Positions 563-26,416 of a DNA stretch of 31,195 nucleotides are shown here, piece after piece. How positions within the stretch are numbered: position 1 is the stretch's first letter; the number at the start of each line of letters is the position of its first letter. A program made the position numbers and the translations under genes. Origin of the DNA: Methanobacteriota archaeon (GTDB taxonomy: Archaea > Thermoplasmatota > Poseidoniia > Poseidoniales > Poseidoniaceae). The notes under the pieces were generated by a model. That model saw only the letters and a program-made list of their open reading frames with translations. It was not told the origin of the DNA and did no database searches. The stretch is taken from positions 1 through 31,195 of the forward strand of contig JABIGM010000028.1 of the NCBI GenBank assembly GCA_018650165.1, in the 5' to 3' direction.

Positions 563-600
563 GTCGGCGTCAGTCACGAGATGATTCCGAAGTGTTAACT

Positions 601-10821: not shown

Positions 10822-13800
10822 ATGAAAATCCGCGCGGCAGTGTTGGTAACCCTCCTAATAATGACCTCTGCAGCCTCAGTAATGGCTAGTGATACAGTCA
10901 CTACACAAGATGTAGAGATTTCTGGAAATTACGTGATGACAGGAAATTATACTGTTAGCCATGGAACAACTTTGACTCTAAAACCGGGTGCAACTATCGA
11001 TATGCAGAACTTTTGGCTAGAAGTTGAAGGAACTCTTGTTGGAAACAATGCAACAATAATGTCGTCAATTCAAACAACAGGCCAGGGGTCTCATAACGCT
11101 GGAGTTTGGGATGCTTTGACCATTTCTTCGATAGGTGTAGCAACTTTGGACAACATTACAATCTCGAATGCGAAGTCATGTATTATTGTTGACGGAACCT
11201 TGTCAGCTACTGGGTTGGTACTAGAGGATTGTTTAATCGGACTAGAAGTGGCAGGATCTGCAACAATCAGTGAGATATCTTCCGCACATATCGACCATGA
11301 CGGAATAAGAGTCACTGGAGTTGCAGATATTTCGGATTCCACATTTAGTGACATGAGCGGAGGTATTCTATCCAGCGGAGACCTCACCTTAGCTGGCGCT
11401 GACTTTACAGATGTAGGGACAGGACTGTCACTTACAGGAGGGACTGCCGATGTATCAACACTCAACTTTGTTTCAGGTATAGGAAACGGAGTTAGTATCT
11501 CCTCAGGCGTTACTGGAGATGTTGATGGGATGATAGGTCATTCTGCAAACGCCATTGTTTCGATGGATGCCTCTGGATTCACTTTGGCTAATATTGACAT
11601 GAGCGGTGAAAGATTAGTTAATTCATGGACAGCAGGCGACTTGACAATCTCAGATGTAGTCTTTGATGCAGATAGTGGTGAGACCCCGATTGACATTCGT
11701 ACCTCGGGCACAGTTACACTTTCCAATATTGCTTTGACTGGGCAATTTTCGGCCCAACAATCAACATTTAATGCACCATGGATTGGTATGAATTTAGCAG
11801 GAAGTGGCGATTACATAATTGATTCATCTAATATTGCATCTACTGATACAGCATTGAAAGCGAGTGGCACAGGAACTCTCTCAATTTCAGATTCTACATT
11901 TACTTCGGATAGAAAGGGATTATCATTTTCAGGAATTTCAGCAACCACTTTGCATAATGTAGTGGTTAACATCTCTAGTGGAGGCGAAATGGGAATTGAT
12001 ATTCTTCAGGGAATCCATACTTTCTCAGAGTTGGAAGTGAATATGCCATTCAATCAATTCGAAAGCGGTAGCACTGGAATTGAAGCATGGTGGTGTGAAA
12101 TCAATGCCGAAGATATTGCGGTAAACGGGTTCGCAAATGGTTTATCAGTTCATGAATCCATTCTAACAGCAGAAGATTTGACCCTTCTCGATTCCAGCGA
12201 ACAGGGACTATCTGCATCATCTTCAATGGTTACCGTTACCGATGCTTTGGAAACGAGACTTGCAGATAGCGGCCTGGCATTGGTGTCTTCTACAGCAGTT
12301 CTTAGGACATGGACCATGTCATATCATGACAATGGAGGGGAAATTGACTCCTCGTCCGAAGTAATTGTTTGGTCTTTGTCATCAATTGGCAATCTTAATT
12401 CAGATACTACAGGAGACGGGACTCTACATTACGGAACAAGTCAAACATTGTTGATTGATACTGTTGCAAATTATCGTTTGTGGGAGATGACGATATCATT
12501 CGAAGACCTAACTGGAAACTCAGTAGATGCCGATTGGGAAGTTCTAGGATTCAGCGGAACTGCTTCGAATGGCGAAGATATACTTCCAGTTAGCGAATCA
12601 GGGTCGCAGATCACTGCGACCTTTTCTGGCATAGGTGCTCTTTCTAGACCGTCTGGAGTCCAAGGTGGAACTCATACGATACAAGTACCTTTGATGCCAC
12701 AAAGCGACTGGACATTAGCTGGTGGAACCATTGTAGTTCTTGGCCCAACCGAAGATGGTAGCCCACATATCGCAGGAGGGAACATTACTATTCCATCTAA
12801 CTCCCAACTTCGCTTGCAAGATACAACGCTTCAATTACCGAGTTATGCCACACTAACCATAGATTACAATGGTGAATTTCTTGGGATTAATTCACACTTC
12901 GAAGGCGATGTTATCTCTTCAGGAGGCAGTGTGAATGATGATTATACGGGTGAAGAAAACTTGACCATCGTCGGGGATGTCATGTGGACCTCATGTCCAA
13001 TTGTTTCTCAAGAGGTACCAAATCTCAACATCGTAGGAGATATTCACCTAGATAATTCATGCAAAGTTACAATTCATACAGGAGGAGTTTCAGGAGATGT
13101 AACCGTTGGCACTGGAGCGATTTTCGAGATAGTCAACACTCTTGAAGTAACAGTTCTAGACAAGGGCATTGCCGTTCAAGGCGCATCAATAACAGTTCAG
13201 GGACAAAGCGTTTCTACAGACGCAGATGGTAAAGCTAGCAAATCAACAACCGCGTTAAGAGTTGACTCGAGCGGAACCACAACTGCTGGCCTAACGCAGG
13301 TAACAATGCAACGGGGTTCAATTTCAGACCTAATGGCCTGGGATACATCAGCATCTAAACAACATACTTTCATTGCCTCTACAATTTCAGGGGGGACTTT
13401 ATCTGAATGGCTTATCCTTGAGAAGGCATGGAGCCCTTACTACCTATCAAGCAATCTCGTGATCCCACAAAGCCAGACTATGACAATAAATGATGGTGTT
13501 TCATTGCGTGTTGCTGATGAAATAGCAATCACAGTAGAGGGTACATTCGAATCAGGGTATTCTACAATTTCATCTATGGGTGGAGGTGCAAGGTGGGGCG
13601 GCTTGATCGTTGGAGATAACGTCGAAACAACCGCTTCATTACTTGGTACAAGTTTAGTAGAAGGCTCACCAGTCTTGACCATGAGTGGTTATGCAGATAT
13701 AATTCTGAGCGACGGTTTACTTTCTCGTTCTAGTGGAGCAGAACCTCTGATTCGCATGACCAATTCTGCTGAAGGCACCCTTCAAATTGTTTCTACCACA

Positions 13801-15402
13801 CTTTCAGATTCCGCTTCTTATTGTATTGAAGCTCAAGGAACAGCGGAATTATCAATGCAACAAGTAACAATGCAAACTTGTGCAACAGATTCCCTTTGGG
13901 CCCGTAGTCTACCCCTTTCTATCGATGGATTAACCGTTACAGAAAAGGTCGACCTTGGCGGAGTCACAGGTGAAATGAACGACTTGAATGGAGCCGACTT
14001 ACATTTCAATAATTTAGATGGATTTATGATGTCAGATTTAACTCTTACATCAATAAATGGTTCAGATAACCGTGAGATAAATATCGATGGAGCGGTAATT
14101 AATGGAGCACCAGCAATTGATTTCGAAAATACAGCAGGTAGTATCTCTCATTTAGCAATCAACTGTGGCGGAAGTGGCGTTGGAGTTACTTCTCACCACG
14201 GCAGAGCATCTTCACCTCTTACCATTAGTGATTCATCAATTACATCTTGTACAAAAGGAATCGATTTACACACCGATGGCGAATCTGCTGCAATGGAATT
14301 AAATGATGTTAGCATCGAATCGATGGTGGCAATTTCTAGTGATGGAAACGACATAGTAATCCATGATGGAATTTTAAACGGTTCGGTAGATATGAACTCA
14401 GCAATGGCAAACCTCTTCGATGTATTGCCAACGTCTCAATCAACAACATTTGGGCAAATAATAATGTGGAAAACACACATCCTAGATGTACGCTTAGGAG
14501 CATTATCAGTGGAAGCAAACCTCGAACTTTCAGTTGGAGAAAGTTGGTCAGAAACTACGCTTGGCAGCAGTGTCCAAATTGCGATTCCACATACTACGGT
14601 TAGCGATACGGGTACCGATGCAGTAAGCATAGTTACAATTGTAGCAACAGCAGAAAATTTGCCAGACAGCAACGAACAGTATTCCTTTGGCCCAACTGAA
14701 GATGAAATAATCCAAATAAATATGGTCAGTAATCAAGCACCAAGTATCGATATAATCGATCCAGAAGATGGATTCACTATAATGGAAACATTGCCAATAG
14801 AAATCAGGGCTGTTATCAGCGACGACCTAGATTCTAACAGCGAGTTACAAATCATATGGCGAGTTACAATTGGGCAAACCGAAATGCAACAATTATCTGG
14901 CGAATGGAATAATATCACAGACCTCCAGGCGGGAACATATGTCCTTACTTTGGAAGTAACAGATACACAAGGCATGATGTCTAGTGCATCGAGTTCATTC
15001 ACAATTACATTACTTGATTCGGATGGAGATTGGATTGGAACATGCAATCTCGAAACCTGGTTCGATAAAGAAGAGAACGTGTATTGTGGCCCTGATGTTT
15101 ATGATACCGATGATGATAACGATGGAGTTCTAGACATAAGAGACCCATGGCCTACAGATTCCTGTGCTAGCATGGATACAGATAGTGATGGCCAACCTGA
15201 CAATATGCATTGCCCACCGGGAGTTACAACTTGGCTAACTGTTGATCCAGACGATGACGGAGATGGAATTCCAGATACATCCGAAGGACAAGAATCCGAT
15301 GACGATTCTAGTGGTAGCCCGATCACCATAATCATCTTCGTTGGCCTGTTCCTTGCCGCAGCAGCATTTATGCTAATGCGCAAAGAGCAGGAAGTGGAGT
15401 GA
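10822..15402 (+). CDS. Large (1,526 aa) secreted, membrane-anchored protein with right-handed parallel beta-helix modules, a PKD/Ig-like domain, TSP3-like repeats and a C-terminal TM
   Basis: Signal peptide MKIRAAVLVTLLIMTSAASVMA. Ser/Thr/Gly/Ile-rich beta-helix-like turns (I.I.DS.F, GI.I). NQAP..L.AGTYVLTLEVTD Ig domain. DTDDDNDG and DTDSDG repeats. TM ITIIIFVGLFLAAAAFMLM-RK. Confidence 0.8.
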   Translation: MKIRAAVLVTLLIMTSAASVMASDTVTTQDVEISGNYVMTGNYTVSHGTTLTLKPGATIDMQNFWLEVEGTLVGNNATIMSSIQTTGQGSHNAGVWDALTISSIGVATLDNITISNAKSCIIVDGTLSATGLVLEDCLIGLEVAGSATISEISSAHIDHDGIRVTGVADISDSTFSDMSGGILSSGDLTLAGADFTDVGTGLSLTGGTADVSTLNFVSGIGNGVSISSGVTGDVDGMIGHSANAIVSMDASGFTLANIDMSGERLVNSWTAGDLTISDVVFDADSGETPIDIRTSGTVTLSNIALTGQFSAQQSTFNAPWIGMNLAGSGDYIIDSSNIASTDTALKASGTGTLSISDSTFTSDRKGLSFSGISATTLHNVVVNISSGGEMGIDILQGIHTFSELEVNMPFNQFESGSTGIEAWWCEINAEDIAVNGFANGLSVHESILTAEDLTLLDSSEQGLSASSSMVTVTDALETRLADSGLALVSSTAVLRTWTMSYHDNGGEIDSSSEVIVWSLSSIGNLNSDTTGDGTLHYGTSQTLLIDTVANYRLWEMTISFEDLTGNSVDADWEVLGFSGTASNGEDILPVSESGSQITATFSGIGALSRPSGVQGGTHTIQVPLMPQSDWTLAGGTIVVLGPTEDGSPHIAGGNITIPSNSQLRLQDTTLQLPSYATLTIDYNGEFLGINSHFEGDVISSGGSVNDDYTGEENLTIVGDVMWTSCPIVSQEVPNLNIVGDIHLDNSCKVTIHTGGVSGDVTVGTGAIFEIVNTLEVTVLDKGIAVQGASITVQGQSVSTDADGKASKSTTALRVDSSGTTTAGLTQVTMQRGSISDLMAWDTSASKQHTFIASTISGGTLSEWLILEKAWSPYYLSSNLVIPQSQTMTINDGVSLRVADEIAITVEGTFESGYSTISSMGGGARWGGLIVGDNVETTASLLGTSLVEGSPVLTMSGYADIILSDGLLSRSSGAEPLIRMTNSAEGTLQIVSTTLSDSASYCIEAQGTAELSMQQVTMQTCATDSLWARSLPLSIDGLTVTEKVDLGGVTGEMNDLNGADLHFNNLDGFMMSDLTLTSINGSDNREINIDGAVINGAPAIDFENTAGSISHLAINCGGSGVGVTSHHGRASSPLTISDSSITSCTKGIDLHTDGESAAMELNDVSIESMVAISSDGNDIVIHDGILNGSVDMNSAMANLFDVLPTSQSTTFGQIIMWKTHILDVRLGALSVEANLELSVGESWSETTLGSSVQIAIPHTTVSDTGTDAVSIVTIVATAENLPDSNEQYSFGPTEDEIIQINMVSNQAPSIDIIDPEDGFTIMETLPIEIRAVISDDLDSNSELQIIWRVTIGQTEMQQLSGEWNNITDLQAGTYVLTLEVTDTQGMMSSASSSFTITLLDSDGDWIGTCNLETWFDKEENVYCGPDVYDTDDDNDGVLDIRDPWPTDSCASMDTDSDGQPDNMHCPPGVTTWLTVDPDDDGDGIPDTSEGQESDDDSSGSPITIIIFVGLFLAAAAFMLMRKEQEVE

Positions 15403-18306: not shown

Positions 18307-20325
18307 ATGGCCGGGGCGGAACGAATCCAACATCTGGCCGATGCGGTCAGATATCACCGCGAATTGTATTACAATCACGCTGCTCCAGAGGTTAGTGATG
18401 CTGAATTCGATGCTCTGTGGGATGAATTGAAGGAATTAGATCCTAGTAACGATGTGTTACATGAAGTCGGTCCCGAGCCTTTACCTGGTACTGTAAAAGT
18501 AGAGCATATGTTTCCGATGAGGTCACTGGATAAAGGGGTCTCAGATGAAGACATAATTCATTTTGTAACCCAGTCTACCTTTGGAGGTAATAGATACCTT
18601 GGCCAACCTAAACTAGATGGCTCAGCATTATCGCTAGAATATGTATCAGGTAATCTTCACCGTGCAGCAACACGAGGTAGTGGTGAGCGGGGAGAGGATG
18701 TAACACTCAATGCCAAACTGGTGGCGAATGTGCCATTACGCCTCAATGTTGCAGTCGATTGTCATGTGAGAGGCGAAGTTGTAATGCCATTGGCAACATT
18801 CGATGAGAAATATCGTGATATATCGCCTAATCCCCGCAACCTATGTTCAGGCGCATTACGCCAAAAACACGGGGATGGAAAGGCAGATGCTTCAGACCTT
18901 ATTTTCCAAGCATACGATGTTAAATTTCCAAAAGAATCTCCGGATATGCAAAATGATAGTGAACTACTTTCTTGGTTACAAGATGCCGGAATTGAGCCCG
19001 CTCCATGGACTATCTTTGAATCCGAAGAACCTCAGAAAGAGATGATTGAGTTTACACAAGAGTGGGGTACTAAGAGGGCCTCATATAAATTTGAAATCGA
19101 TGGCATTGTATTCAAATTAGATAATCTATCACAGCGTGAAAATTTAGGAATGACCGCGCACCATCCGCGATGGGCATTGGCTTGGAAATTCCCCTCACAA
19201 GAAGCATTTTCTGTATTATTGGGCGTCGATTGGCAAACAGGTAGAACGGGGGCGGTGACGCCAGTGGCACGCATTGCTCCACAAATGGTTGGAGGAGTTA
19301 CCGTTGAAAACGTGACTTTGCATAATGTAGGAGAGGTCCAAAGATTAGGTGTAAAAATTGGCGACAGGGTTACAATTACTCGAAGAGGAGACGTAATCCC
19401 AAAAATAATTGATAATCATGGGCCAGCATCTGAAGAAGATCTCCAAAACCGATTTCATGCAGATGGTACAGCCTTCACAGGAGAATTATTAGTTTCAAAA
19501 ATCGAGATTCCAAACGCTTGTCCAGCCTGTGGACGAGAATTAAACATGGAGGGGGCGTTCCTCAGATGTATCGCCTTAGAATGCGATGCTAGAACTGCTA
19601 GGTCGCTGACATATTGGTGCCGCACTCTTGAGATGGATGGAATCGGCGAGAAGTTAATCGAAGCACTATTGGAGCGAGGAATAGTCGAAACTATTGCCGA
19701 CTTATATCGCCTCAACCATACACAAATCTCAAACCTTGAACGCATGGGTGATAAGAGCGCATATAATGCTCTAGACGAACTTGCAAAAACACGAACTTTG
19801 AATTTAGCTAGGTTCCTTCACGCTCTTGGAATGGAGCGAATTGGGCCAGAGGTTGCAACAACAATTTCTCAACATTTCACCTCACTAGAAAACCTCCTTC
19901 GGTGGACAGACGAAGGACTTGACGAAGAGTTGACCATTATCGACGGTATCGGTGAAAAGGTGGCTGCAATCTTCAGAGAAGGAATCAACAAAAGACGTTC
20001 ATTAATTGATGAACTATCATCAATAATCAGCGTTACCAATGAATCCGAAGCATCAAGTGGAATATTTGATGGCAAGTCATTCTGTATCACTGGTTCATTA
20101 TCTCGGCCAAGAAAAGAAATTGCTCTAGCAATAAAGAACGCCGGTGGAAAAGTAGTTGGAAGCGTAAGCAATAACCTAGATGTCTTAGTCGCTGGGCAAA
20201 AAGCGGGTAGTAAATTAGCAAAAGCAGAATCATTCGGATTAGAAATTTGGTCCGAAGACGAACTTTTTGGTAAGTTTGCAGAACCCAAAAGCGGCCCTAA
20301 GACGTTATTTGATTATGACCAATGA
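18307..20325 (+). CDS. ligA: NAD+-dependent DNA ligase (bacterial type)
   Basis: Domain Ia YH..LYY....VSDAEFD.L..EL..L; motif I PKLDG; G.GEDVT.N; EIDGIVFK; HHPRWALAWKF; WQTGRTGAVTPVA; Zn finger CPACG...CIALEC; HhH repeats; BRCT GKSFCITGSL...GSKL.KA. Confidence 0.96.
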   Translation: MAGAERIQHLADAVRYHRELYYNHAAPEVSDAEFDALWDELKELDPSNDVLHEVGPEPLPGTVKVEHMFPMRSLDKGVSDEDIIHFVTQSTFGGNRYLGQPKLDGSALSLEYVSGNLHRAATRGSGERGEDVTLNAKLVANVPLRLNVAVDCHVRGEVVMPLATFDEKYRDISPNPRNLCSGALRQKHGDGKADASDLIFQAYDVKFPKESPDMQNDSELLSWLQDAGIEPAPWTIFESEEPQKEMIEFTQEWGTKRASYKFEIDGIVFKLDNLSQRENLGMTAHHPRWALAWKFPSQEAFSVLLGVDWQTGRTGAVTPVARIAPQMVGGVTVENVTLHNVGEVQRLGVKIGDRVTITRRGDVIPKIIDNHGPASEEDLQNRFHADGTAFTGELLVSKIEIPNACPACGRELNMEGAFLRCIALECDARTARSLTYWCRTLEMDGIGEKLIEALLERGIVETIADLYRLNHTQISNLERMGDKSAYNALDELAKTRTLNLARFLHALGMERIGPEVATTISQHFTSLENLLRWTDEGLDEELTIIDGIGEKVAAIFREGINKRRSLIDELSSIISVTNESEASSGIFDGKSFCITGSLSRPRKEIALAIKNAGGKVVGSVSNNLDVLVAGQKAGSKLAKAESFGLEIWSEDELFGKFAEPKSGPKTLFDYDQ

Positions 20326-20362: not shown

Positions 20363-22795
20363 ATGAAAAAGAAACTATTACCACTTTCACTAGTGCTGCT
20401 GCTGTTATTATCAATGGCACCACTCTCTACCGGAAATAGTAATGGAATATTCAATCAGGGTTCGGGTTGTGGGGGCGGTTACTGTCACGGCAGCAATACC
20501 AACGCAGTAGTTTCAATGTCGGGACAACCTGCGAGTTATACAGCCGGGCAGGCCTATACACTGTCAATATCAGTCACCGGAGGGGTATCAGGGTCAACGA
20601 ACGGGGGCTTCAGTTTGGAGGTAAACACAGGAACTCTTTCTACCGGAGGAGTGGGTATTATGTCAGTCAAGGTAGATTCCAGTGGGACAAGTGCAACTCA
20701 TACCACTAACAGTTATCGCAGTTGGAGCGTAGATTGGACAGCACCAGCAACAGGGGCGGGAATCGCTACGTTTGATCTAGGGGGAAACGCAGTAGATGGC
20801 AATAATTACAATACTAACGATAATTGGGATTCAGTAAGTTACCAAGTCCCTGAAGCAGGAACGACTCCAAATAATGCGCCGTCGGCCACCAATCTACAAT
20901 TATCACCATCAAGTCCAGTAACAACCGACACACTGTCTCTCACATATTCTTACCAAGACCCAGATGGCGATGCTGAAAGCGGCACAACAATACATTGGTA
21001 CAAAGATGGAGTTTTGGAAAATTCACGCACCGACCAAACCACAGTTCCATTTTCTCTAACGACTAAAGGAGAATCGTGGAATGCCACTGTAACTCCAAGC
21101 GATGGAATAGATAATGGCACTCCAATCCATTCTTCTAATCTCGTAATCGCCAATTCAATACCATCTATTCAAAGTGCTTCCATTACACCATCACCGGCAA
21201 CCGAGAATAACAATCTCACAGTTGATTGGACATCAATTGATGCAGACGGAGATATACGAACAGTCAGTGGAATTGAATGGTATGTTGGTGGTTCTAAAGT
21301 TTCAGCATTTGATAATGATGTTACAATCCCATCTGTAGCAATTAGAGATGGCGATGTTTGGTACTCAAAAGTCAAAGTAAATGATGGAGAAATCGATAGT
21401 GCTTGGTTCACCACCCAACAGGTTACAATTGGCAGCGATAATTCTGCTCCCACTATGACTAGTGTCTCTTTAACAGGACCTTATACTACTCTTGACGATT
21501 TGGTTGCAACCTCTTTAGGAAACGATGTAGATGGCGACATTTTAACATACGAATGGGAATGGCCGGGTACTTCCTATACCACATCAGTACTGCCATCTTC
21601 AGAGACCAGTAAGGGAGAAAGTTGGACAGTAAAATGCAGAGTTACTGATGGAGAAGCATTTTCGGAATGGATGGAGAGTAGTTCAGTAAATATTCAAAAC
21701 TCACTACCGGTACTTACCAGCGTTAGTATTGATCAAGATTCAATATTTTTTGAGAGTGAAGCAACCTATACCTTTGAAGCCACAGATGCTGATGAGGACA
21801 CTCTTTTTACAAATGAAGTATGGTCATTAGACGGAGAAATACTCACTCTTACACTAACTGTTAATGATGATGATTTGAGTTATTCATCTGCGATATCCGA
21901 TACGGTAATTATTGCCAATTCGTTACCTATTGCAACCTACGCGGGTGCGAGTATACAAGATGCTTTGAGCGATATCAACCCATTGATTCAAACAGATGAC
22001 GCCAATGAGGACCCGGTTACAATCTCTTGGATGTGGATGAGAAATGGATTTACTACTGACTATAATCAGAGTATTATCCCTTCATCTAACTTAGGCGCTG
22101 GTGATATTTGGACAGCCTTCATAACTCCTAATGATGGCATGGATGATGGAGTGGTGCTGATAATAGAATTTACAATTTCGAACACGGCACCTACAGCAAT
22201 TATCACAGCTCCAACCGACCTCGTACAAGGCACATCAGTTATCTTTTCAGCTAGCGAATCCACTGATAGCGATGGCGCTATTGTGAATGCAATATGGAGC
22301 GTTGACGGTACTATTGCGCACACAGGAATGACATTTACTACATTGATTGCAAATCAAATGGAGATACAGGTAAAGGTAATCGATGATATGGGCGCAAGTG
22401 ACACAATCTCAGCGGTTTTCACTGGATTAGTACCACCCTATGCAACTAATACGGAAGCAACTGCAGACGGTAACGACGTAGTCCTTACTTGGGAAGGAAA
22501 CGCCGAAGAATGGGCGATAGTTCACAATGGCGAAGTAATCGATACAACATCTGCATCCAATTATCGTCATGCGCCTACGATGTCTGGAGCGCATACATAC
22601 AGCGTATTGCCTATCGTTGACGGCCAACAAATACAATGGGATGGCGAAACCTCTTCAGATAATGTAGAACTAAACTCAAATTCTGTTCCAGAAACACCGG
22701 GACCTAGTCAAACTGCAGGATTAATTTTCAGTATTGTACTACTCCTCGTTGGAATTACAGGTATAGCATTTTCATTTATCCCAAGGAGGGATTGA
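20363..22795 (+). CDS. Secreted, membrane-anchored protein: N-terminal Reeler-like (choice-of-anchor V-like) domain with CGGGYCH, five cadherin/Ig-like repeats, PKD, FN3-like domain, C-terminal TM
   Basis: Signal peptide; P..Y..G..Y.L.I, GGFSL, ATHT, WSVDWTAP, GNAVDG..D Reeler-like pattern; repeated N.xP...DxDGD...W...G[ED].W...DG units; TM GLIFSIVLLLVGITGIAFSFI-PRRD. Confidence 0.78.
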   Translation: MKKKLLPLSLVLLLLLSMAPLSTGNSNGIFNQGSGCGGGYCHGSNTNAVVSMSGQPASYTAGQAYTLSISVTGGVSGSTNGGFSLEVNTGTLSTGGVGIMSVKVDSSGTSATHTTNSYRSWSVDWTAPATGAGIATFDLGGNAVDGNNYNTNDNWDSVSYQVPEAGTTPNNAPSATNLQLSPSSPVTTDTLSLTYSYQDPDGDAESGTTIHWYKDGVLENSRTDQTTVPFSLTTKGESWNATVTPSDGIDNGTPIHSSNLVIANSIPSIQSASITPSPATENNNLTVDWTSIDADGDIRTVSGIEWYVGGSKVSAFDNDVTIPSVAIRDGDVWYSKVKVNDGEIDSAWFTTQQVTIGSDNSAPTMTSVSLTGPYTTLDDLVATSLGNDVDGDILTYEWEWPGTSYTTSVLPSSETSKGESWTVKCRVTDGEAFSEWMESSSVNIQNSLPVLTSVSIDQDSIFFESEATYTFEATDADEDTLFTNEVWSLDGEILTLTLTVNDDDLSYSSAISDTVIIANSLPIATYAGASIQDALSDINPLIQTDDANEDPVTISWMWMRNGFTTDYNQSIIPSSNLGAGDIWTAFITPNDGMDDGVVLIIEFTISNTAPTAIITAPTDLVQGTSVIFSASESTDSDGAIVNAIWSVDGTIAHTGMTFTTLIANQMEIQVKVIDDMGASDTISAVFTGLVPPYATNTEATADGNDVVLTWEGNAEEWAIVHNGEVIDTTSASNYRHAPTMSGAHTYSVLPIVDGQQIQWDGETSSDNVELNSNSVPETPGPSQTAGLIFSIVLLLVGITGIAFSFIPRRD

Positions 22796-23896
22796 ATGCG
22801 AATCCGAGTTGGAATTGTATTGCTATTGATGCTATTATCAGCCACAATATCCACTGCAAACCCTGGTGGCAAAGGAGATGATATCCGTTCAAGAGATTGT
22901 GCAGGGTCTTGTCACGCATCATCATCATCAAACGGAGTATCTTCTGCTAATCTTAGCATAGAACTCCCTGATGAAATATACGCAGGTTTGTTGATGGAAA
23001 TTATTACATCAGTCAGAGGGGTAGATGTTAGTTCAAATAATCTTGTTGGGATGGCACTACTAATCAATTCGGACGGGGCCAAGGATTTACCTGCTAACGA
23101 CGGATGGGAAGTAATCACAGATCCAAATGGCGGCGTTAACAATTATGTAGAAATCTCGGATTCATTTTCCTCACAAACTTCGGTAAATCGAAGTTGGACA
23201 TTACGTGCACCTAGTTCACCCGGGTCATATGAATTGTATTTAGCAGTCCAACACGGTTCCCAAGAAGGTGGAATTGCCATGAGCGGTATTTCAGATTCTG
23301 TCGAAGTGCAGGTTCTAACAGTACCAGAGAATCTACCACAACTTTCGCCTGAATGGAAACCGATTAATTCGAGATTAATTGGAGAAGAAACCACAATCAC
23401 CCTTGAAACTATGAATACCGAATCCGCCACAGTCGAACTAAAGAATGGCGCAGAGATTTCAATAATCTCGGTCACCGATGGTAAATTTACGATACCTGCT
23501 GCAGTTAACCCCGGTACAGTAGAATGGAGAGTAATTCTTGAAGGAGAGGGCCCTACTCAAACATCACCATGGTTCCGGTTAACCGCACAACTACCTGGTT
23601 GGTCTGTGGACGAAACATCACTATATGTTCAGGGGTTTGCACTCTTTTTACTTGGAGCGAGTTTGGTAATGATTCAGAGGCCAAAAGAAGAAATAATCGA
23701 TAAAAAATATGATAATACAAACCAGGTAATCGCAGTAGAAGCATCGATACCAGAATTAACATTTACACAAACATCCGAAATTGTAACCGAAGCAACCCCT
23801 ATTCCTCCAGAAGGATTGCCAGAGGGATGGACGATGGAGCAATGGAATTACTATGGGCATGAACATCTCAAAAGTTTAGAAGGAGGTGCAGTTTGA
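22796..23896 (+). CDS. Secreted, membrane-anchored protein with a paralogous Reeler-like domain carrying CAGSCH, a TM and a cytoplasmic GLPEGWTMEQW tail
   Basis: Starts directly after the previous stop (TGAATG) with SD AAGGAGG; signal peptide; WTLRAP..PGSY.L...V.HG; TM LYVQGFALFLLGASLVMI. Confidence 0.75.
   Translation: MRIRVGIVLLLMLLSATISTANPGGKGDDIRSRDCAGSCHASSSSNGVSSANLSIELPDEIYAGLLMEIITSVRGVDVSSNNLVGMALLINSDGAKDLPANDGWEVITDPNGGVNNYVEISDSFSSQTSVNRSWTLRAPSSPGSYELYLAVQHGSQEGGIAMSGISDSVEVQVLTVPENLPQLSPEWKPINSRLIGEETTITLETMNTESATVELKNGAEISIISVTDGKFTIPAAVNPGTVEWRVILEGEGPTQTSPWFRLTAQLPGWSVDETSLYVQGFALFLLGASLVMIQRPKEEIIDKKYDNTNQVIAVEASIPELTFTQTSEIVTEATPIPPEGLPEGWTMEQWNYYGHEHLKSLEGGAV
23882..23888 (+). 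promoter_or_regulatory. Shine-Dalgarno GGAGGTG for the DUF2231-like gene
   Basis: Exact archaeal SD 7 nt upstream of ATG 23896, which overlaps the previous stop (TGATG). Confidence 0.7.
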
Positions 23897-24408
23897 TGAT
23901 TTCATCACCAACACTTCATGTAATTTCTACCGAACTTACCATTGGTATGTTCGCACTTTCTGGTGTAGCATTCCTTCTTTGTTTATTACAAAAAGGACCT
24001 CTTTCAAGAGAAGCAGTGGCTCACTGGGCTCTCCTCGGCGGATTACTGGCAACTCCATTTGCAATACTAACGGGTATTGATTCAGCACCTGGCGATGGAA
24101 TTGATAATCCATTACTGGCGAACAAAGTGTTACTCTCCATGACATCAGCTGGATTAGCGATTGGAGTGCTAGTTAGGCGTAAATGGGGCGGCGAAGCCGA
24201 TATTCGTCACGCATGCACCGGGATGATTTCAGTAGGACTTATGCTAACTACAGCTGGAATGGGCGGTGAATATTCGAGAAACGAGACACTACTCTTTTTT
24301 GTGCCCAAAGAAACAGTACTGATTTTCCCAATATGGGCCAGTATACTGTTGATAATTCTAGGAATCGTAATTATAGCCAAATCAGCCATACAGCATAGAG
24401 TTAGTTGA
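23896..24408 (+). CDS. DUF2231-like integral membrane protein (4-5 TM)
   Basis: LHVISTELTIG ~ LHP.xVHFPIA; AHWALLGGLLATPFAILTG ~ A.W.L..G.L....A..TG; TTAGMGGEY ~ G.LGG.L; family call by eye. Confidence 0.6.
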   Translation: MISSPTLHVISTELTIGMFALSGVAFLLCLLQKGPLSREAVAHWALLGGLLATPFAILTGIDSAPGDGIDNPLLANKVLLSMTSAGLAIGVLVRRKWGGEADIRHACTGMISVGLMLTTAGMGGEYSRNETLLFFVPKETVLIFPIWASILLIILGIVIIAKSAIQHRVS

Positions 24409-25176
24409 TGGGGTAGTTTCAGGTTCAGCCCCTTCCATCATACCACGAATCTGTTCTTCTAGTAACTTAGCTTCTTCTAACAATGGACCGTGGTCCAAAT
24501 CGATTACAGGCAACATCTTGTTTAGATGTTCAATAATCACTGCAGCGGCTCCTGCATCCGGGTATCTTGGATCGGCTTCTACCATTAGACTCATGATATT
24601 TCGACCTCTACTCGCACCTTCGCTAAGCATTGCCCCGGTCATTCCTTTGATAACACCCTGTTCAAGAAGAGGAATCTCCATTTTCTCCAATAACTCATTC
24701 ATCAATGGTGTTGCTGCAACACCAAGGACATCTATTGCCTCTGTATCTTCGTATTCAACCATTGGTTCAGTAGGTAGTCCACCCTTCATTCCCTTACGGG
24801 CAAATGCATCGATAAGGACGCCCATAGCAGCCTTTTCATTTTTCGACCATGCAAATAATTCACTAACGATTTCATGGACTAGCGGGTCTGGAACAATCAA
24901 TTCACTCATTAGAAGAACTACCTTATCACAGCCCTCGATTTTACAGACGGGCTTTCCAGAATACGCTCTAATTGCCGGAAGTGGCACTCCATCTTGAATT
25001 AGACAAATAGCAGGTAATTTAGGGTGAGCAACTCCTCCCACAAATTCCAATTCTAAGTGATCAATCAAAAAATGAGCCACTACACTAGATACCATTCCTA
25101 CACTTGGGAAACAGCATACTACGAGTGCATCCTCGATATCTATGCTCTTGTCAAGCCAAACCTTCGCTCCTTCCAT
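24382..25176 (-). CDS. PAC2-family proteasome assembly chaperone / activator
   Basis: CCFPSVGMVSSVVAHFLIDHLEL..VG, SELIVP, G.I.GMTG..L, ADPRYPDAGAAAVIIE.LNK..P.ID...LLEEA..LE; C-terminal MLYG; ATG 25176. Confidence 0.9.
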   Translation of the reverse strand: MEGAKVWLDKSIDIEDALVVCCFPSVGMVSSVVAHFLIDHLELEFVGGVAHPKLPAICLIQDGVPLPAIRAYSGKPVCKIEGCDKVVLLMSELIVPDPLVHEIVSELFAWSKNEKAAMGVLIDAFARKGMKGGLPTEPMVEYEDTEAIDVLGVAATPLMNELLEKMEIPLLEQGVIKGMTGAMLSEGASRGRNIMSLMVEADPRYPDAGAAAVIIEHLNKMLPVIDLDHGPLLEEAKLLEEQIRGMMEGAEPETTPSTNSMLYG

Positions 25177-25270
25177 GTTATCAGGACATCCCTCTTTGCG
25201 TATAATGCCCGCGCATACCTTGTTCATTTGCAATCCCAAGCGATTTGAAGGTGAAGTCTCTAAGCGGAAC

Positions 25271-26416
25271 ATGGGCGAAGAAAGGAAGCACACACTTTCA
25301 CCGTCTGCATGGAACCGATTCGAAACCTGTCCTCGAATGTATTGGCTAAGTAGGCAGAGACTTCCTCGTAAAGCCGGAATGGCTGCCAGCCTTGGTACTG
25401 CAGTGCATGCTTCAATTGAAGATCTTCTTCAAGTGGATATTTCAAATCGTATATCGGATGAAACACATTGGTTACCAGATATGGCTGAAGGGTTTCTCAA
25501 AACCCGATGGAATGAAGAAAAAGAGATATTTCTAGCAACCCCTCGTCGACCAATGTGGAAAGAAAAAGAATGGGATAAGGCCAAGCGAATGCAAAGAGGT
25601 GCAATCAAAATGCTCCTTGAATTCATCGGCGCACCAGGTGTGACTCCGTTGAAAACCACAATTGCGTTGTGGAAGAGTCTTCTTTCAAGAGTTATTGCAG
25701 TAGAGGGTGAATTAAGGACAAGCGACAATCGTCTGATGGGCCGATTAGATATGTTATTTGCAGATGTTGACGAATCTGGAAACCTAAGCGGCTGGGTAGT
25801 TGCTGACCTGAAAACTGGAAGGGCACCAGAATCAGAATTGAAGCCTGAAGTTCAAAGACAGTTATTGCTGTATAGAGACATCCTTCTTTCCAATAATACG
25901 AACGCCCCTCCTGTCAAAACAGAGGGTTGGTATACTGCAAATGCAACACGTTACACTGCGACTGGAGACTCAGTTATGGAAGATGCATTAGCAGCTTGGG
26001 AGGCAACAAAACCTAGTGAAACACCTCTAGAAGCGACCCCAGGCCAATCTTCATGTGGTGGTTTTTGTGATTGGAAAGCATGGTGCCCTCATTGGTGGAA
26101 TTGGCGCTTAGAAAACGGGACACTAGGTAGTGATGATTTTTCAGACGCAGTAATCTTACTGCACCATTTTGATGAAACAAATGGTTCAGGAATTGCTGAG
26201 ATTTGTGAGCCGGCTAATGCAGAAGGTAGAGCAATGCCAACAGGCTTACAGATACCAATTAGTTTTGATGGACGCGGGAAAGAAGCATTGCAGGAATTAC
26301 TTGCCACGGGACATCAAGGGCCAATTTTCATAGGTGGCGCAATGACAAGCCGCGGCACATGGCGAGTAGGGCATTGGTGCGATGTCCTAGCTTGGTCACC
26401 AATCCCTGACGCTTGA
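25271..26416 (+). CDS. PD-(D/E)XK nuclease of the RecB/AddB/Cas4-like type, with a putative Fe-S Cys staple and a C-terminal extension
   Basis: LSPS....F..CPR.YWL, GTAVHA.IE, E..L, GRLD, VADLKTG, QL.LY, CGGFCDWKAWC. Confidence 0.88.
   Translation: MGEERKHTLSPSAWNRFETCPRMYWLSRQRLPRKAGMAASLGTAVHASIEDLLQVDISNRISDETHWLPDMAEGFLKTRWNEEKEIFLATPRRPMWKEKEWDKAKRMQRGAIKMLLEFIGAPGVTPLKTTIALWKSLLSRVIAVEGELRTSDNRLMGRLDMLFADVDESGNLSGWVVADLKTGRAPESELKPEVQRQLLLYRDILLSNNTNAPPVKTEGWYTANATRYTATGDSVMEDALAAWEATKPSETPLEATPGQSSCGGFCDWKAWCPHWWNWRLENGTLGSDDFSDAVILLHHFDETNGSGIAEICEPANAEGRAMPTGLQIPISFDGRGKEALQELLATGHQGPIFIGGAMTSRGTWRVGHWCDVLAWSPIPDA

What the first reader, a model, noticed from the sequence alone, without database searches (positions are those of the whole stretch)
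20363..24408. Coupled three-gene surface module: two Reeler-like domains with Cys-x-Cys-His motifs plus a DUF2231-like membrane protein (candidate archaeal heme/redox or iron-capture system)
Seen: three co-oriented genes with translational coupling (TGAATG with SD AAGGAGG; TGATG with SD GGAGGTG). The first two are exported, TM-anchored proteins with paralogous heads: signal peptide, N-[S/P]-x-G, a Cys...Cys-His motif, then W-x-x-x-A-P. The third is a polytopic membrane protein. Established: CxxCH is the c-type heme attachment motif, and eukaryotic FRRS1/SDR2 ferric-chelate reductases combine a Reeler domain with a membrane cytochrome b561. Inference: this may be a split archaeal analogue in which extracellular heme- or metal-binding heads work with a membrane partner in iron acquisition, extracellular redox or sensing. 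I know of no characterised system like this in marine Thermoplasmatota.
Basis: partly seen in the sequence, partly recalled or inferred. Interest (0 to 1): 0.82.

Follow-up and report, generated by a model that had tools for sequence, protein, structure and literature searches.

The report
Probable surface haem-protein trio, marine archaea
Most Marine Group II archaea carry a three-gene unit for two outward-facing, membrane-anchored proteins that probably hold a covalently bound haem on unusual Cys-Xn-Cys-His sites, plus a small membrane protein predicted to clamp the anchor of the second; its job is unknown, and an electron-transfer role at the cell surface is the best guess.

Summary
Three co-oriented genes (20363-22795, 22796-23896, 23896-24408) abut or overlap, each junction behind a Shine-Dalgarno-like site. 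The motifs are Cx4CH and Cx3CH, not CxxCH.

What I found:
- **Heads.** Both belong to the choice-of-anchor V superfamily. Its fold is closest to the F-spondin reeler domain and ties with cytochrome f. Cys, Cys and His are invariant; the Cys spacing varies from 1 to 6.
- **Family context points to electron transfer.** In this genome one paralogue is fused to oxidase subunit I and another heads the Rieske/cytochrome b operon. In another Thermoplasmatota family a copy sits between NrfCD-like genes and ccmABC.
- **Haem maturation.** The genome has CcmA(B)CEF but no canonical cytochrome c that I could find.
- **The trio is a unit.** It is syntenic in every locus examined, across all three families of the order. 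ORF2 and ORF3 are present together or absent together (41 both, 6 neither, 0 discordant).
- **ORF2-ORF3 contact.** A complex model supports docking of ORF2's anchor on ORF3 (0.70, best control 0.00).
- **ORF3.** It is only weakly DUF2231-like and has one invariant His, so it is not a cytochrome b561 analogue.

Haem binding and function are unproven. The scan had already noted the family's oxidase and complex III copies on other DNA; the trio and its membrane partner are the new part.

The parts
20363..22795 (+). ORF1 (810 aa): signal peptide, N-terminal head domain, long stalk of beta-rich repeats, C-terminal TM anchor
   Evidence: ORF. NF041895 choice_anch_V 72.7 bits (cut-off 42) on aa 16-157. 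Orthologues of 807-916 aa lie in the same position in 14 loci.
20435..20857 (+). ORF1 head domain (aa 25-165), Reeler / cytochrome-f-like beta-sandwich
   Evidence: AlphaFold2 model, pLDDT 87.5. Foldseek ranks 1-8 are the F-spondin reeler domain, E 1.5e-6. VIA-align ranks 1-2 are cytochrome f, Z 10.1, 134 residues aligned from model residue 25/30; this ties with other beta-sandwiches.
20468..20488 (+). ORF1 C-GGGY-C-H motif (C36, C41, H42)
   Evidence: Sequence. These three columns are invariant in 99 family members. Orthologues carry CxCH in 11 loci and Cx5CH in one genome of the same genus.
20858..22714 (+). ORF1 stalk (aa 166-784): beta-rich modules of roughly 90 aa, including one weak PKD-like match (aa 607-681)
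   Evidence: PKD_4 at 23.3 bits, below the cut-off. tblastn hits to orthologues recur at offsets of about 90 aa. No internal repeat was found by blastp at 1e-3.
22715..22780 (+). ORF1 C-terminal TM anchor (aa 785-806), followed by RRD
   Evidence: Hydrophobic stretch read.
22783..22789 (+). Shine-Dalgarno-like AAGGAGG, 6 nt before the ORF2 ATG; TGA|ATG junction at 22793-22798
   Evidence: Sequence.
22796..23896 (+). ORF2 (366 aa): signal peptide, divergent head, second beta-sandwich, TM anchor, cytoplasmic tail
   Evidence: 128 relatives. Full-length match in 101 of 121 genomes of the order. Model pLDDT 83.8 with strands at 46-175 and 180-265, TM helix 273-293 and tail helix 347-362.
22898..22915 (+). 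ORF2 C-AGS-C-H motif (C35, C39, H40)
   Evidence: Kept in all 85 full-length relatives, always as Cx3CH.
23252..23254 (+). ORF2 H153, an invariant second histidine (candidate second ligand)
   Evidence: Invariant in A1 and A5. It aligns to the GNAVNG region of the family, while the family's usual second His (H113 of ORF1) is missing in ORF2.
23612..23674 (+). ORF2 TM anchor (aa 273-293) with invariant Q279; predicted docking helix for ORF3
   Evidence: The predicted interface covers residues 268-294. Q279 is invariant.
23804..23869 (+). ORF2 cytoplasmic tail motif PPxGLPxGWTMEQWxxYGxExL
   Evidence: Conserved in A1. The same motif recurs at the ends of many 800-1800 aa ORFs in the order. Modelled as a helix.
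23882..23888 (+). Shine-Dalgarno-like GGAGGTG before ORF3; TGATG overlap at 23894-23898
   Evidence: Sequence.
23896..24408 (+). ORF3 (170 aa): 5-TM membrane protein, weakly DUF2231-like; invariant H8, G17, G60, N76, K77, G86, G123
   Evidence: 173 relatives; alignment A4. One copy per genome, in Poseidoniales and one further family. DUF2231 best E 0.022, hit by 5 of 16 members. Predicted to hold ORF2's anchor between TM3 and TM5.

Best explanation
The three genes form one functional unit. It is found in most, but not all, Marine Group II archaea (Poseidoniales).

ORF1 and ORF2 are exported by the Sec route and stay tethered by a C-terminal helix. Each starts with a Reeler / cytochrome-f-like beta-sandwich. 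On that domain the archaeal Ccm system (CcmABCEF) most likely attaches one haem covalently to the Cys-Xn-Cys-His site a dozen residues from the mature N-terminus (n = 4 in ORF1, 3 in ORF2). The His would be the proximal ligand. A second conserved His (H113 in ORF1, H153 in ORF2) or the conserved new N-terminus would be the distal one.

ORF3 is a small five-helix membrane protein that grips ORF2's anchor helix. Its invariant polar residues (N76-K77) and ORF2's Q279 lie at the outer membrane boundary.

The assembly would pass electrons along the outside of the cell. The ORF3/ORF2 pair is the membrane-proximal station. The ORF1 head is held far out on a stalk of about 600 residues and acts as the distal, swinging station.

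Shown:
- gene coupling
- conservation and joint loss of the genes
- the fold
- motif invariance
- presence of Ccm
- redox context of the paralogues

Modelled: the ORF2-ORF3 contact.

Inferred:
- haem attachment
- direction and partners of electron flow
- any link of ORF3 to the quinone pool
For: **Unit**
- TGA|ATG and TGATG junctions behind SD-like sites.
- ORF1-ORF2-ORF3 order in every locus examined from all three families of the order, while the flanking genes are shared only within one family.
- In the 47 genomes common, ORF2 and ORF3 are both present in 41, both absent in 6, and never discordant.

**ORF2-ORF3 contact**
- Score 0.70, best control 0.00. That mark was reached by 58 of 80 solved complexes and 2 of 110 mismatched pairs.
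- The runs share at least 71% of contacts, and the partner's pLDDT is at least 74.
- My own alignments and a riding haem were used, so the calibration holds only roughly.
- The interface is ORF2 268-294 against ORF3 TM3 and TM5.

**Haem**
- Cys, Cys and His are invariant in 99 family members, with spacing 1, 2, 3, 4 or 6 and His always directly after the second Cys.
- All 85 full-length ORF2 relatives keep C35, C39, H40 and H153.
- The genome has CcmF, a CcmA-type ATPase, CcmC and a CcmE ending ..KTSCP, the archaeal CxxxY type (PMC9084895).
- It has no hit to Cytochrom_C or Cytochrome_CBB3. The only CxxCH ORFs that look like real genes are thioredoxin-like or thiol-oxidoreductase-like proteins and one large TSP3-repeat protein.
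- In 251 Thermoplasmatota genomes the head family and CcmE mostly go together. The five apparent exceptions I tested (G136 of f18, four genomes of f29) all have CcmF/CcmC-like genes.
- Kletzin et al. 2015 (PMC4429474) predicted, by modelling only, that CxxCH homologues in Ignicoccus are Reeler-fold monohaem cytochromes c with a conserved His111.

**Electron transfer (context of paralogues)**
- A head is fused to COX1 inside the COX2-COX1-COX3-COX4-SCO1 operon.
- A head with a C-terminal anchor heads the Rieske/cytochrome b operon.
- In genome G136 a head gene lies between NrfC-like/NrfD genes and ccmABC, and another overlaps a multicopper oxidase gene.
- In family f23 the ORF3 homologue overlaps the stop of an EB_dh haem-domain protein that has CxxCH, Cx3CH and a C-terminal anchor.

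**Fold**
- Cytochrome f ties for first place for the ORF1 head and is the only hit aligned from the mature N-terminus.
- It is rank 3 by Foldseek for ORF2.
Against: - No experiment shows haem on any member of this family.
- The family's usual C-x-C-H spacing has, to my knowledge, never been shown to bind haem c.
- C-x-C-H-G also resembles Rieske box II (PMC4122944). Two Cys plus two His could equally hold a metal or a cluster.
- Ccm and the head family may go together only because both accompany aerobic respiration.
- The genome is 80% complete, so a canonical cytochrome c could be hiding.
- The cytochrome f match ties with cohesin, CLIPPER and reeler domains (Z 9.4-10.1). It is absent from the top 50 VIA matches for ORF2.
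- One haem at the end of a stalk of about 600 non-conducting residues cannot wire electrons to the membrane unless the stalk bends.
- ORF3 has only one invariant His and no recognisable quinone or haem site.
- The trio is missing from 20 of 121 genomes that still respire, so it is not part of the core chain.
- No expression data could be obtained.
Confidence: 0.45

Rival explanations
1. The Cys-Xn-Cys-His site, with the second His, binds a metal ion or a small iron-sulfur cluster rather than haem. The heads would then be copper, iron or zinc proteins: carriers, chaperones or sensors.
For: - Two Cys and two His are the conserved polar set.
- C-x-C-H-G is the form of Rieske box II.
- A Cys spacing that varies from 1 to 6 is easy for a metal loop.
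- The COX1 fusion lies in an operon with SCO1, so a copper-delivery role is conceivable.
- The copper proteins YcnI and CopC appear among the generic fold matches of ORF2 (Z 8.2 and 8.5).
- One paralogue (MSRRFS...) lies next to TatC.
Against: - The ORF1 and ORF2 signal peptides have no twin-arginine motif. An exported iron-sulfur protein would need Tat, as this genome's Rieske protein shows (RRQFLRYG).
- His directly after the second Cys, across all spacings and including canonical CxxCH members, is the signature of haem c.
- This reading leaves the Ccm system without a substrate.
- The YcnI and CopC matches do not stand out from unrelated beta-sandwiches.
Confidence: 0.2
2. The heads do carry haem, but ORF3 is not a working subunit. 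It would be a dedicated assembly or maturation helper for anchored proteins with the unusual Cx3CH site, much as special lyases serve CX15CH or CXXCK sites.
For: - ORF3 always follows a C-terminally anchored protein with Cx3CH: ORF2 in Poseidoniales (always Cx3CH), and the EB_dh protein with GGCLVTCH in family f23.
- It has one invariant His, near the outer face.
- It is single-copy and co-lost with ORF2.
Against: - ORF3 has no WWD motif and no match to haem-handling families.
- The model places it in tight, lasting contact with the anchor helix rather than the motif.
- Only two lineages support the Cx3CH link.
Confidence: 0.12
3. The trio is a capture relay for an outside ligand such as haem or iron, in the manner of the NEAT-domain Isd relay of Gram-positive bacteria. 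A far-reaching receptor (ORF1) would hand its cargo to a short one (ORF2) and then to a membrane protein (ORF3).
For: - The three proteins sit at graded distances from the membrane: a stalk of about 600 aa, a stalk of about 100 aa, and an integral membrane protein.
- The heads are beta-sandwiches, like NEAT domains.
- An automatic Atlas name for a related DUF2231 cluster mentions a haem transporter. That is a lead only (score 0.86).
Against: - Non-covalent haem receptors do not need an invariant Cys-Xn-Cys-His.
- ORF3 is too small to be a recognisable transporter, and no ATPase or permease gene is linked.
- Paralogues of the head sit in electron-transfer operons, not uptake operons.
Confidence: 0.1
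4. The heads are plain adhesion or surface-structure modules. The two Cys form a small disulfide loop and there is no cofactor.
For: - Animal reeler domains are matrix-binding modules with no known cofactor.
- ORF1 looks like a fibrillar adhesin: an N-terminal tip domain, a repeat stalk and an anchor.
- The best fold matches include adhesin tip domains and cohesins.
Against: - A disulfide loop does not explain the invariant His after the second Cys, nor the second conserved His.
- It does not explain the fusion to COX1, the position in the Rieske/cytochrome b operon, or the neighbourhood with ccm genes.
Confidence: 0.08

Closest known systems
NCBIfam NF041895, choice-of-anchor V domain
   Same: ORF1's head scores 72.7 bits (cut-off 42). 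It sits at the N-terminus directly after the signal peptide, followed by varied anchors, as in the family. The ORF2 family is homologous by profile comparison (98.3%, E 2e-14).
   Different: - ORF2 alone scores 28.8 bits, below the cut-off.
- Both proteins have widened the usual G-C-x-C-H-G to Cx4CH and Cx3CH.
- ORF2 has lost the family's GGF, GNAVNG and THT signatures and gained its own invariant His (H153).
- The family has no assigned function.
Predicted Reeler-fold monohaem cytochromes c of Desulfurococcales (Igni_0759 / Igni_1052; Kletzin et al. 2015, PMC4429474)
   Same: Exported proteins modelled on the F-spondin reelin-N domain. They have a Cys-Xn-Cys-His site near the N-terminus (C28, C31, H32), a conserved second His (H111, against H113 here) and in some a C-terminal anchor helix.
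   Different: - Those carry canonical CxxCH.
- They are stand-alone proteins with no described stalk, no ORF3-like partner and no three-gene unit.
- They rest on modelling only.
- I did not align their sequences here.
Cytochrome f (PetA) of cytochrome b6f complexes
   Same: A beta-sandwich haem c protein with the attachment site close to the mature N-terminus and a C-terminal anchor helix. It ties for the best VIA match of the ORF1 head (Z 10.1, rmsd 3.4, 134 aligned, from the N-terminus) and is Foldseek rank 3 for ORF2.
   Different: - No sequence-family match.
- Neither ORF1 nor ORF2 lies with Rieske/cytochrome b genes; a paralogue on another contig does.
- The motif spacing differs.
- The structural score ties with unrelated sandwiches.
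   Same: An outward Reeler-type domain combined with a membrane protein. In another archaeal family the same membrane protein is paired with a DOMON-type (EB_dh) haem domain.
   Different: - The parts are separate genes.
- ORF3 has five helices and one invariant His, against the four haem-binding His of b561 (the b561 figure is from my own knowledge).
- There is no evidence for iron reduction.
Pfam PF09990, DUF2231 (predicted membrane protein)
   Same: It is the only Pfam family hit repeatedly by ORF3 relatives (5 of 16, best E 0.022). The match runs along nearly the whole model, positions 3-128 of 139. An Atlas neighbour cluster also carries it (0.86).
   Different: All scores (8-13 bits) lie far below the cut-off of 26.4 bits. 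DUF2231 itself has no known function.

Membership tests
NCBIfam NF041895 choice-of-anchor V domain | HMM score at or above the curated cut-off (42 bits) | tested here: met
   ORF1 scores 72.7 bits. ORF2 alone scores 28.8 bits, which does not meet the cut-off, but its family profile aligns to the head family at 98.3% probability, E 2e-14.
NCBIfam NF041895 choice-of-anchor V domain | Invariant Cys, Cys-His near the N-terminus (usually G-C-x-C-H-G) | tested here: met
   The Cys, Cys and His columns are invariant in 99 members. The spacing here is 4 and 3 instead of 1. Among the 150 best representatives, spacings of 2, 3, 4 and 6 also occur.
Pfam PF02014 Reeler | Match to the Pfam model | tested here: not met
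   No hit at E <= 1 for ORF1 or ORF2, and none in the six-frame search of the genome.
Pfam PF02014 Reeler | Reeler-type beta-sandwich fold | tested here: met
   For the ORF1 head, Foldseek ranks 1-8 are the F-spondin reeler domain (E 1.5e-6, TM 0.47/0.59). The family profile against PDB sequences finds the same three entries first, E 0.01. By VIA, reeler has Z 9.4, tied with other sandwiches.
c-type cytochrome | CXXCH haem attachment motif | tested here: not met
   The motifs are Cx4CH and Cx3CH. From my own knowledge, CX3CH and CX4CH bind haem in some multihaem cytochromes. The family's usual CxCH has no known precedent.
c-type cytochrome | Export as an unfolded chain to the outer face (Sec signal, no twin arginine) | tested here: met
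   N-termini MKKKLLPLSLVLLLLL... and MRIRVGIVLLLMLL..., read. No signal-peptide predictor was available.
c-type cytochrome | A maturation system in the same genome | tested here: met
   CcmF (781 aa), CcmC, an ABC ATPase next to CcmC, and a CcmE fragment ending ..KTSCP.
c-type cytochrome | Covalently bound haem | not testable with these tools
   This needs protein chemistry.
Cytochrome f (PetA) | Fold of the large domain, with the haem site in the N-terminal segment | tested here: inconclusive
   ORF1 head: Z 10.1, ranks 1-2, aligned from residue 25/30, but tied with unrelated sandwiches; Foldseek rank 48. ORF2: Foldseek ranks 3, 11 and 12, not among the 50 VIA rows.
Cytochrome f (PetA) | Encoded with Rieske and cytochrome b genes | tested here: not met
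   The trio is flanked by DNA ligase, PAC2 and nuclease genes. A paralogue on contig C16 does head such an operon.
Pfam PF09990 DUF2231 (ORF3) | HMM score at or above 26.4 bits | tested here: not met
   12.6 bits in the six-frame search and 8.1 bits for the protein. 5 of 16 relatives hit, best E 0.022.
FRRS1/SDR2-type ferric reductase | Membrane cytochrome b561 with four conserved haem-binding His | tested here: not met
   ORF3 has one invariant His (H8) among 16 diverse relatives.

The most novel reading that the evidence does not exclude
The trio is an outward electron conduit of an abundant ocean archaeon. ORF3, a first functional example of DUF2231-like proteins, would take electrons from the membrane quinone pool and pass them to the haem of ORF2. 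ORF2 would hand them to the haem of ORF1, swinging on its stalk at the cell surface. ORF1 would deal with an outside partner such as ferric chelates, reactive oxygen species or organic matter. The carriers would be a new class of beta-sandwich c-type cytochromes related to both cytochrome f and the animal Reeler domain. The system would be a split prokaryotic counterpart of the eukaryotic Reeler-DOMON-b561 reductases.
Probability: 0.2. Interest if true: 0.9.

Novelty: new variant of a known kind. Interest (0 to 1): 0.72.

Why it matters
Marine Group II archaea are among the most abundant archaea of the surface ocean, none is cultured, and their respiratory chain lacks recognisable cytochromes c.

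If the head family carries haem on Cys-Xn-Cys-His sites:
- This organism's seven copies would explain why it keeps a full Ccm system.
- The range of sequences known to accept haem c would widen.
- A cofactor role would become thinkable for Reeler-type domains.

The trio itself would then be a surface redox device separate from the core chain, because it is lost as a block in some genera. That bears on how these cells interact with iron, oxygen radicals or dissolved organic matter.

It also gives a first testable partner, and so a first handle on function, for a DUF2231-like membrane protein.

Tried and rejected
- **Contigs around distant ORF2 relatives.** I used the genome search and the fetch from genomes instead.
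- **Fused forms of ORF3.** None found among longer proteins. This is weak evidence, as the tool itself warns.
- **Literature.** Searches for choice-of-anchor V, DUF2231 and CXCH with haem gave nothing useful. The only 'CxCH motif' paper concerns Rieske box II.
- **Internal repeats in ORF1.** blastp against itself found none at 1e-3.
- **ORF2 fold search by VIA.** It returned only generic Ig, macroglobulin, cohesin and PKD-like sandwiches. Cytochrome f and reeler are not among its 50 rows.
- **Cytochrome b561-like role for ORF3.** Rejected because only one His is invariant.
- **'Universal in the order'.** I held this after the first synteny look and dropped it. 20 of 121 genomes have only tail-motif hits to ORF2.
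- **Canonical cytochromes.** Cytochrom_C and Cytochrome_CBB3 gave no hit in the genome. The genome is only 80% complete.

Full report
**1. What is in the sequence**

The window holds three co-oriented ORFs at the stated place: ORF1 20363-22795 (810 aa), ORF2 22796-23896 (366 aa) and ORF3 23896-24408 (170 aa from the ATG).
- ORF1's TGA is followed at once by ORF2's ATG, with AAGGAGG six bases upstream.
- ORF2's TGA shares a base with ORF3's ATG, with GGAGGTG upstream.
- The neighbours are an NAD-dependent DNA ligase, a PCC-domain protein, a PAC2 protein and nucleases. The trio therefore stands alone.
- ORF1 and ORF2 begin with Sec-type signal peptides, then N-S-N-G or N-P-G-G, then C-GGGY-C-H (aa 36-42) or C-AGS-C-H (aa 35-40). 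These are Cx4CH and Cx3CH, not CxxCH and not C-x-C-H.

**2. The heads**

- ORF1's head is a member of NCBIfam choice-of-anchor V (72.7 bits, cut-off 42). ORF2 scores 28.8 bits.
- A profile comparison of the ORF2 family with the head family gives 98.3% probability and E 2e-14 over 142 columns. ORF2 is therefore a divergent member.
- A profile of seven heads from this genome finds 6804 cluster representatives at E <= 0.001. Among the best 150 the Cys spacing is 1 in 137, 2 in 6, 3 in 1, 4 in 4 and 6 in 1. His always follows the second Cys.
- In 99 aligned members C36, C41, H42 and G82 are invariant, and a second His (H113) is kept in at least 90%.
- ORF2 lacks that His but has its own invariant H153.
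- The ORF1 head model is confident (pLDDT 87.5).
  - Foldseek ranks 1-8 are the F-spondin reeler domain. A sequence profile finds the same entries first (E 0.01).
  - The Foldseek-independent search puts cytochrome f at ranks 1-2 (Z 10.1, rmsd 3.4, 134 aligned). It is the only match that starts at the mature N-terminus. It ties with CLIPPER, cohesin and reeler domains at Z 9.4-10.0.
- The Pfam Reeler model itself does not match.

**3. What the family does elsewhere**

This genome (1.75 Mb, 80% complete) has at least six further or related copies.
- One is fused, through an extra helix, to the N-terminus of oxidase subunit I, inside a COX2-COX1-COX3-COX4-SCO1 operon.
- One, with a C-terminal anchor, is the first gene of an operon with a Tat-exported Rieske protein and cytochrome b. 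That is the place of cytochrome c1 or f.
- In genome G136, from another Thermoplasmatota family, a copy lies between NrfC-like and NrfD genes and ccmA, ccmB, ccmC, with ccmF nearby. A second copy overlaps a multicopper oxidase gene.

All these places are ones where an electron carrier is expected.

Notes from other agents of this scan had reached the same reading for the oxidase and complex III copies on other DNA. They also led me to Kletzin et al. 2015. That paper predicted, by modelling only, that CxxCH homologues in Ignicoccus are Reeler-fold monohaem cytochromes c with a conserved His111.

**4. Is haem plausible?**

For:
- The genome has CcmF, CcmC with an adjacent ABC ATPase, and a CcmE fragment ending in the archaeal Cys-type motif (PMC9084895).
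- It has no hit to the two general cytochrome c families.
- Among exported ORFs with Cys-X(1-6)-Cys-His, the only ones besides the seven heads are two thioredoxin-like proteins, one TSP3-repeat protein and one unannotated 377-aa ORF.
- In 251 genomes of the phylum, the head family (90 genomes) and CcmE (80) largely share the same families and are jointly missing from the large families f5, f6 and f16.
- The five apparent exceptions I tested (G136 of f18 and four genomes of f29) all have CcmF/CcmC-like genes.

This makes the heads the natural Ccm substrates.

Against:
- It is circumstantial. Both features may simply accompany aerobic life.
- C-x-C-H has no precedent as a haem site.
- It also looks like Rieske box II.

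**5. The trio as a unit**

- ORF1-like, ORF2-like and ORF3-like genes lie in this order, abutting or overlapping, in all 43 loci I fetched from the three families of the order. The flanking genes are shared only within one family.
- ORF2 is always Cx3CH. ORF1 orthologues carry CxCH in 11 loci, Cx5CH in one genome of the same genus and Cx4CH here.
- A full-length ORF2 match is present in 101 of 121 genomes. The other 20, including whole genera, show only hits to the tail motif.
- ORF3 is single-copy.
- In the 47 genomes common to both searches, 41 have both genes, 6 have neither and none is discordant. The six that lack both are 91-97% complete and keep other head copies and CcmE.
- The trio is therefore an accessory block, separate from the core respiratory copies.

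**6. ORF3**

- It has five hydrophobic segments. H8, N76 and K77 are invariant at the predicted outer face, and four glycines are invariant within helices.
- DUF2231 is its only recurrent Pfam neighbour, but far below threshold. An Atlas neighbour gives the same weak lead.
- Outside the order the family appears in one further lineage, f23. There it overlaps the stop codon of an EB_dh (DOMON-type haem domain, E 7e-24) protein. That protein has CxxCH, a second Cx3CH and a C-terminal anchor.
- ORF3-type proteins thus pair with anchored, outward haem-type proteins of two different folds.
- The complex model of ORF2 with ORF3 (haem riding along) passed.
  - The score is 0.70, 0.70 and 0.68, with best control 0.00. 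That mark was reached by 58 of 80 solved complexes and 2 of 110 mismatched pairs.
  - The runs share at least 71% of contacts, and the partner's pLDDT is at least 74.
  - I used my own alignments and a ligand, so the calibration holds only roughly.
  - The interface is ORF2's anchor helix (268-294, with the invariant Q279) against ORF3's third and fifth helices.

**7. ORF2 model**

- The model (pLDDT 83.8) shows two beta-sandwiches, the anchor helix and a helical tail motif. The motif segment (aa 20-45) is poorly defined, as might be expected for a haem site modelled without haem.
- Foldseek lists cytochrome f at ranks 3, 11 and 12 among tandem Ig proteins.
- The VIA search gives only generic sandwiches.

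**8. Reading**

Most likely (0.45): the trio is a surface electron-transfer module built from two haem-carrying Reeler / cytochrome-f-like heads and a membrane clamp. The parts of this claim carry different weight:
- That the three genes form a unit is well supported.
- The ORF2-ORF3 contact is modelled.
- Haem attachment is probable.
- The redox role is inferred from paralogues.
- The outside partner is unknown.

Rivals:
- a metal or cluster site instead of haem (0.2)
- ORF3 as a dedicated maturation helper for Cx3CH proteins (0.12)
- a ligand capture relay (0.1)
- a cofactor-free adhesin (0.08)

**9.

- 'Reeler-like', 'conserved Cys/His', 'syntenic', 'Ccm present' and 'membrane partner' hold.
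- 'CxxCH', 'DUF2231 member', 'b561 analogue' and 'iron' do not hold or remain untested.

The thing is a new variant of known kinds (anchored c-type cytochromes, cytochrome f). It is real, widespread and uncharacterised.

Noticed in passing
window 23804-23869 (ORF2 aa 337-358): The cytoplasmic tail motif GLPxGWTMEQWxxYGxExL also ends many unrelated ORFs of 800-1800 aa across the order (hits to query residues about 270-365). It is modelled as a helix. It may be a shared docking or sorting signal of Marine Group II surface proteins.
   Followed up: partly
L014:4222-8999 (own genome, contig C16): A Rieske/cytochrome b operon: head-domain protein (262 aa, C-terminal anchor), a 151-aa membrane protein, a Tat-exported Rieske protein (CTHLCC ... 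CICHSS), cytochrome b, and an ORF of at least 599 aa (it runs off the fetched stretch) with weak C-terminal 4Fe-4S-type matches (E 0.003-0.05).
   Followed up: partly
L012:4147-6441 (own genome, contig C36): Oxidase subunit I (COX1, E 2e-142) carries an N-terminal head domain with GCLCH and an extra helix. The operon also holds COX2, COX3, COX4_pro and a 581-aa SCO1/SenC fusion.
   Followed up: partly
L013:2705-4959 (own genome, contig C1): A 317-aa head paralogue starting MSRRFSVLL (twin-arginine-like) lies directly upstream of a 431-aa TatC gene, next to transhydrogenase PntB. Tat export would be odd for a Ccm substrate. Unexplained.
   Followed up: no
L083:605-16722 and L084 (genome G136, another Thermoplasmatota family): One strand carries a 4Fe-4S NrfC-like gene, NrfD, a head-domain gene, two unknown genes (487 and 531 aa), ccmA, ccmB and ccmC, with ccmF nearby. 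A second head gene (with an fn3 domain) overlaps a multicopper oxidase gene.
   Followed up: partly
L097:5456-8238 and L098:473-2529 (genomes G176 and G145, family f23): The ORF3 homologue (213-214 aa) overlaps the stop of an EB_dh-domain protein with GCQGCH, GGCLVTCH and a C-terminal anchor. This is a second kind of outward haem-type partner for this membrane protein.
   Followed up: partly
window 24382-24408: The convergent PAC2-family gene (24382-25293, minus strand) overlaps the 3' end of ORF3 by 27 bases.
   Followed up: no
window 592-8478 and 10822-15402: Two giant ORFs (2628 and 1526 aa). The first has only a C-terminal DUF4129 match; the second has no Pfam match at all.
   Followed up: no
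window 18307-20325: A bacterial-type NAD-dependent DNA ligase lies directly upstream. It is syntenic with the trio only within one family of the order.
   Followed up: no
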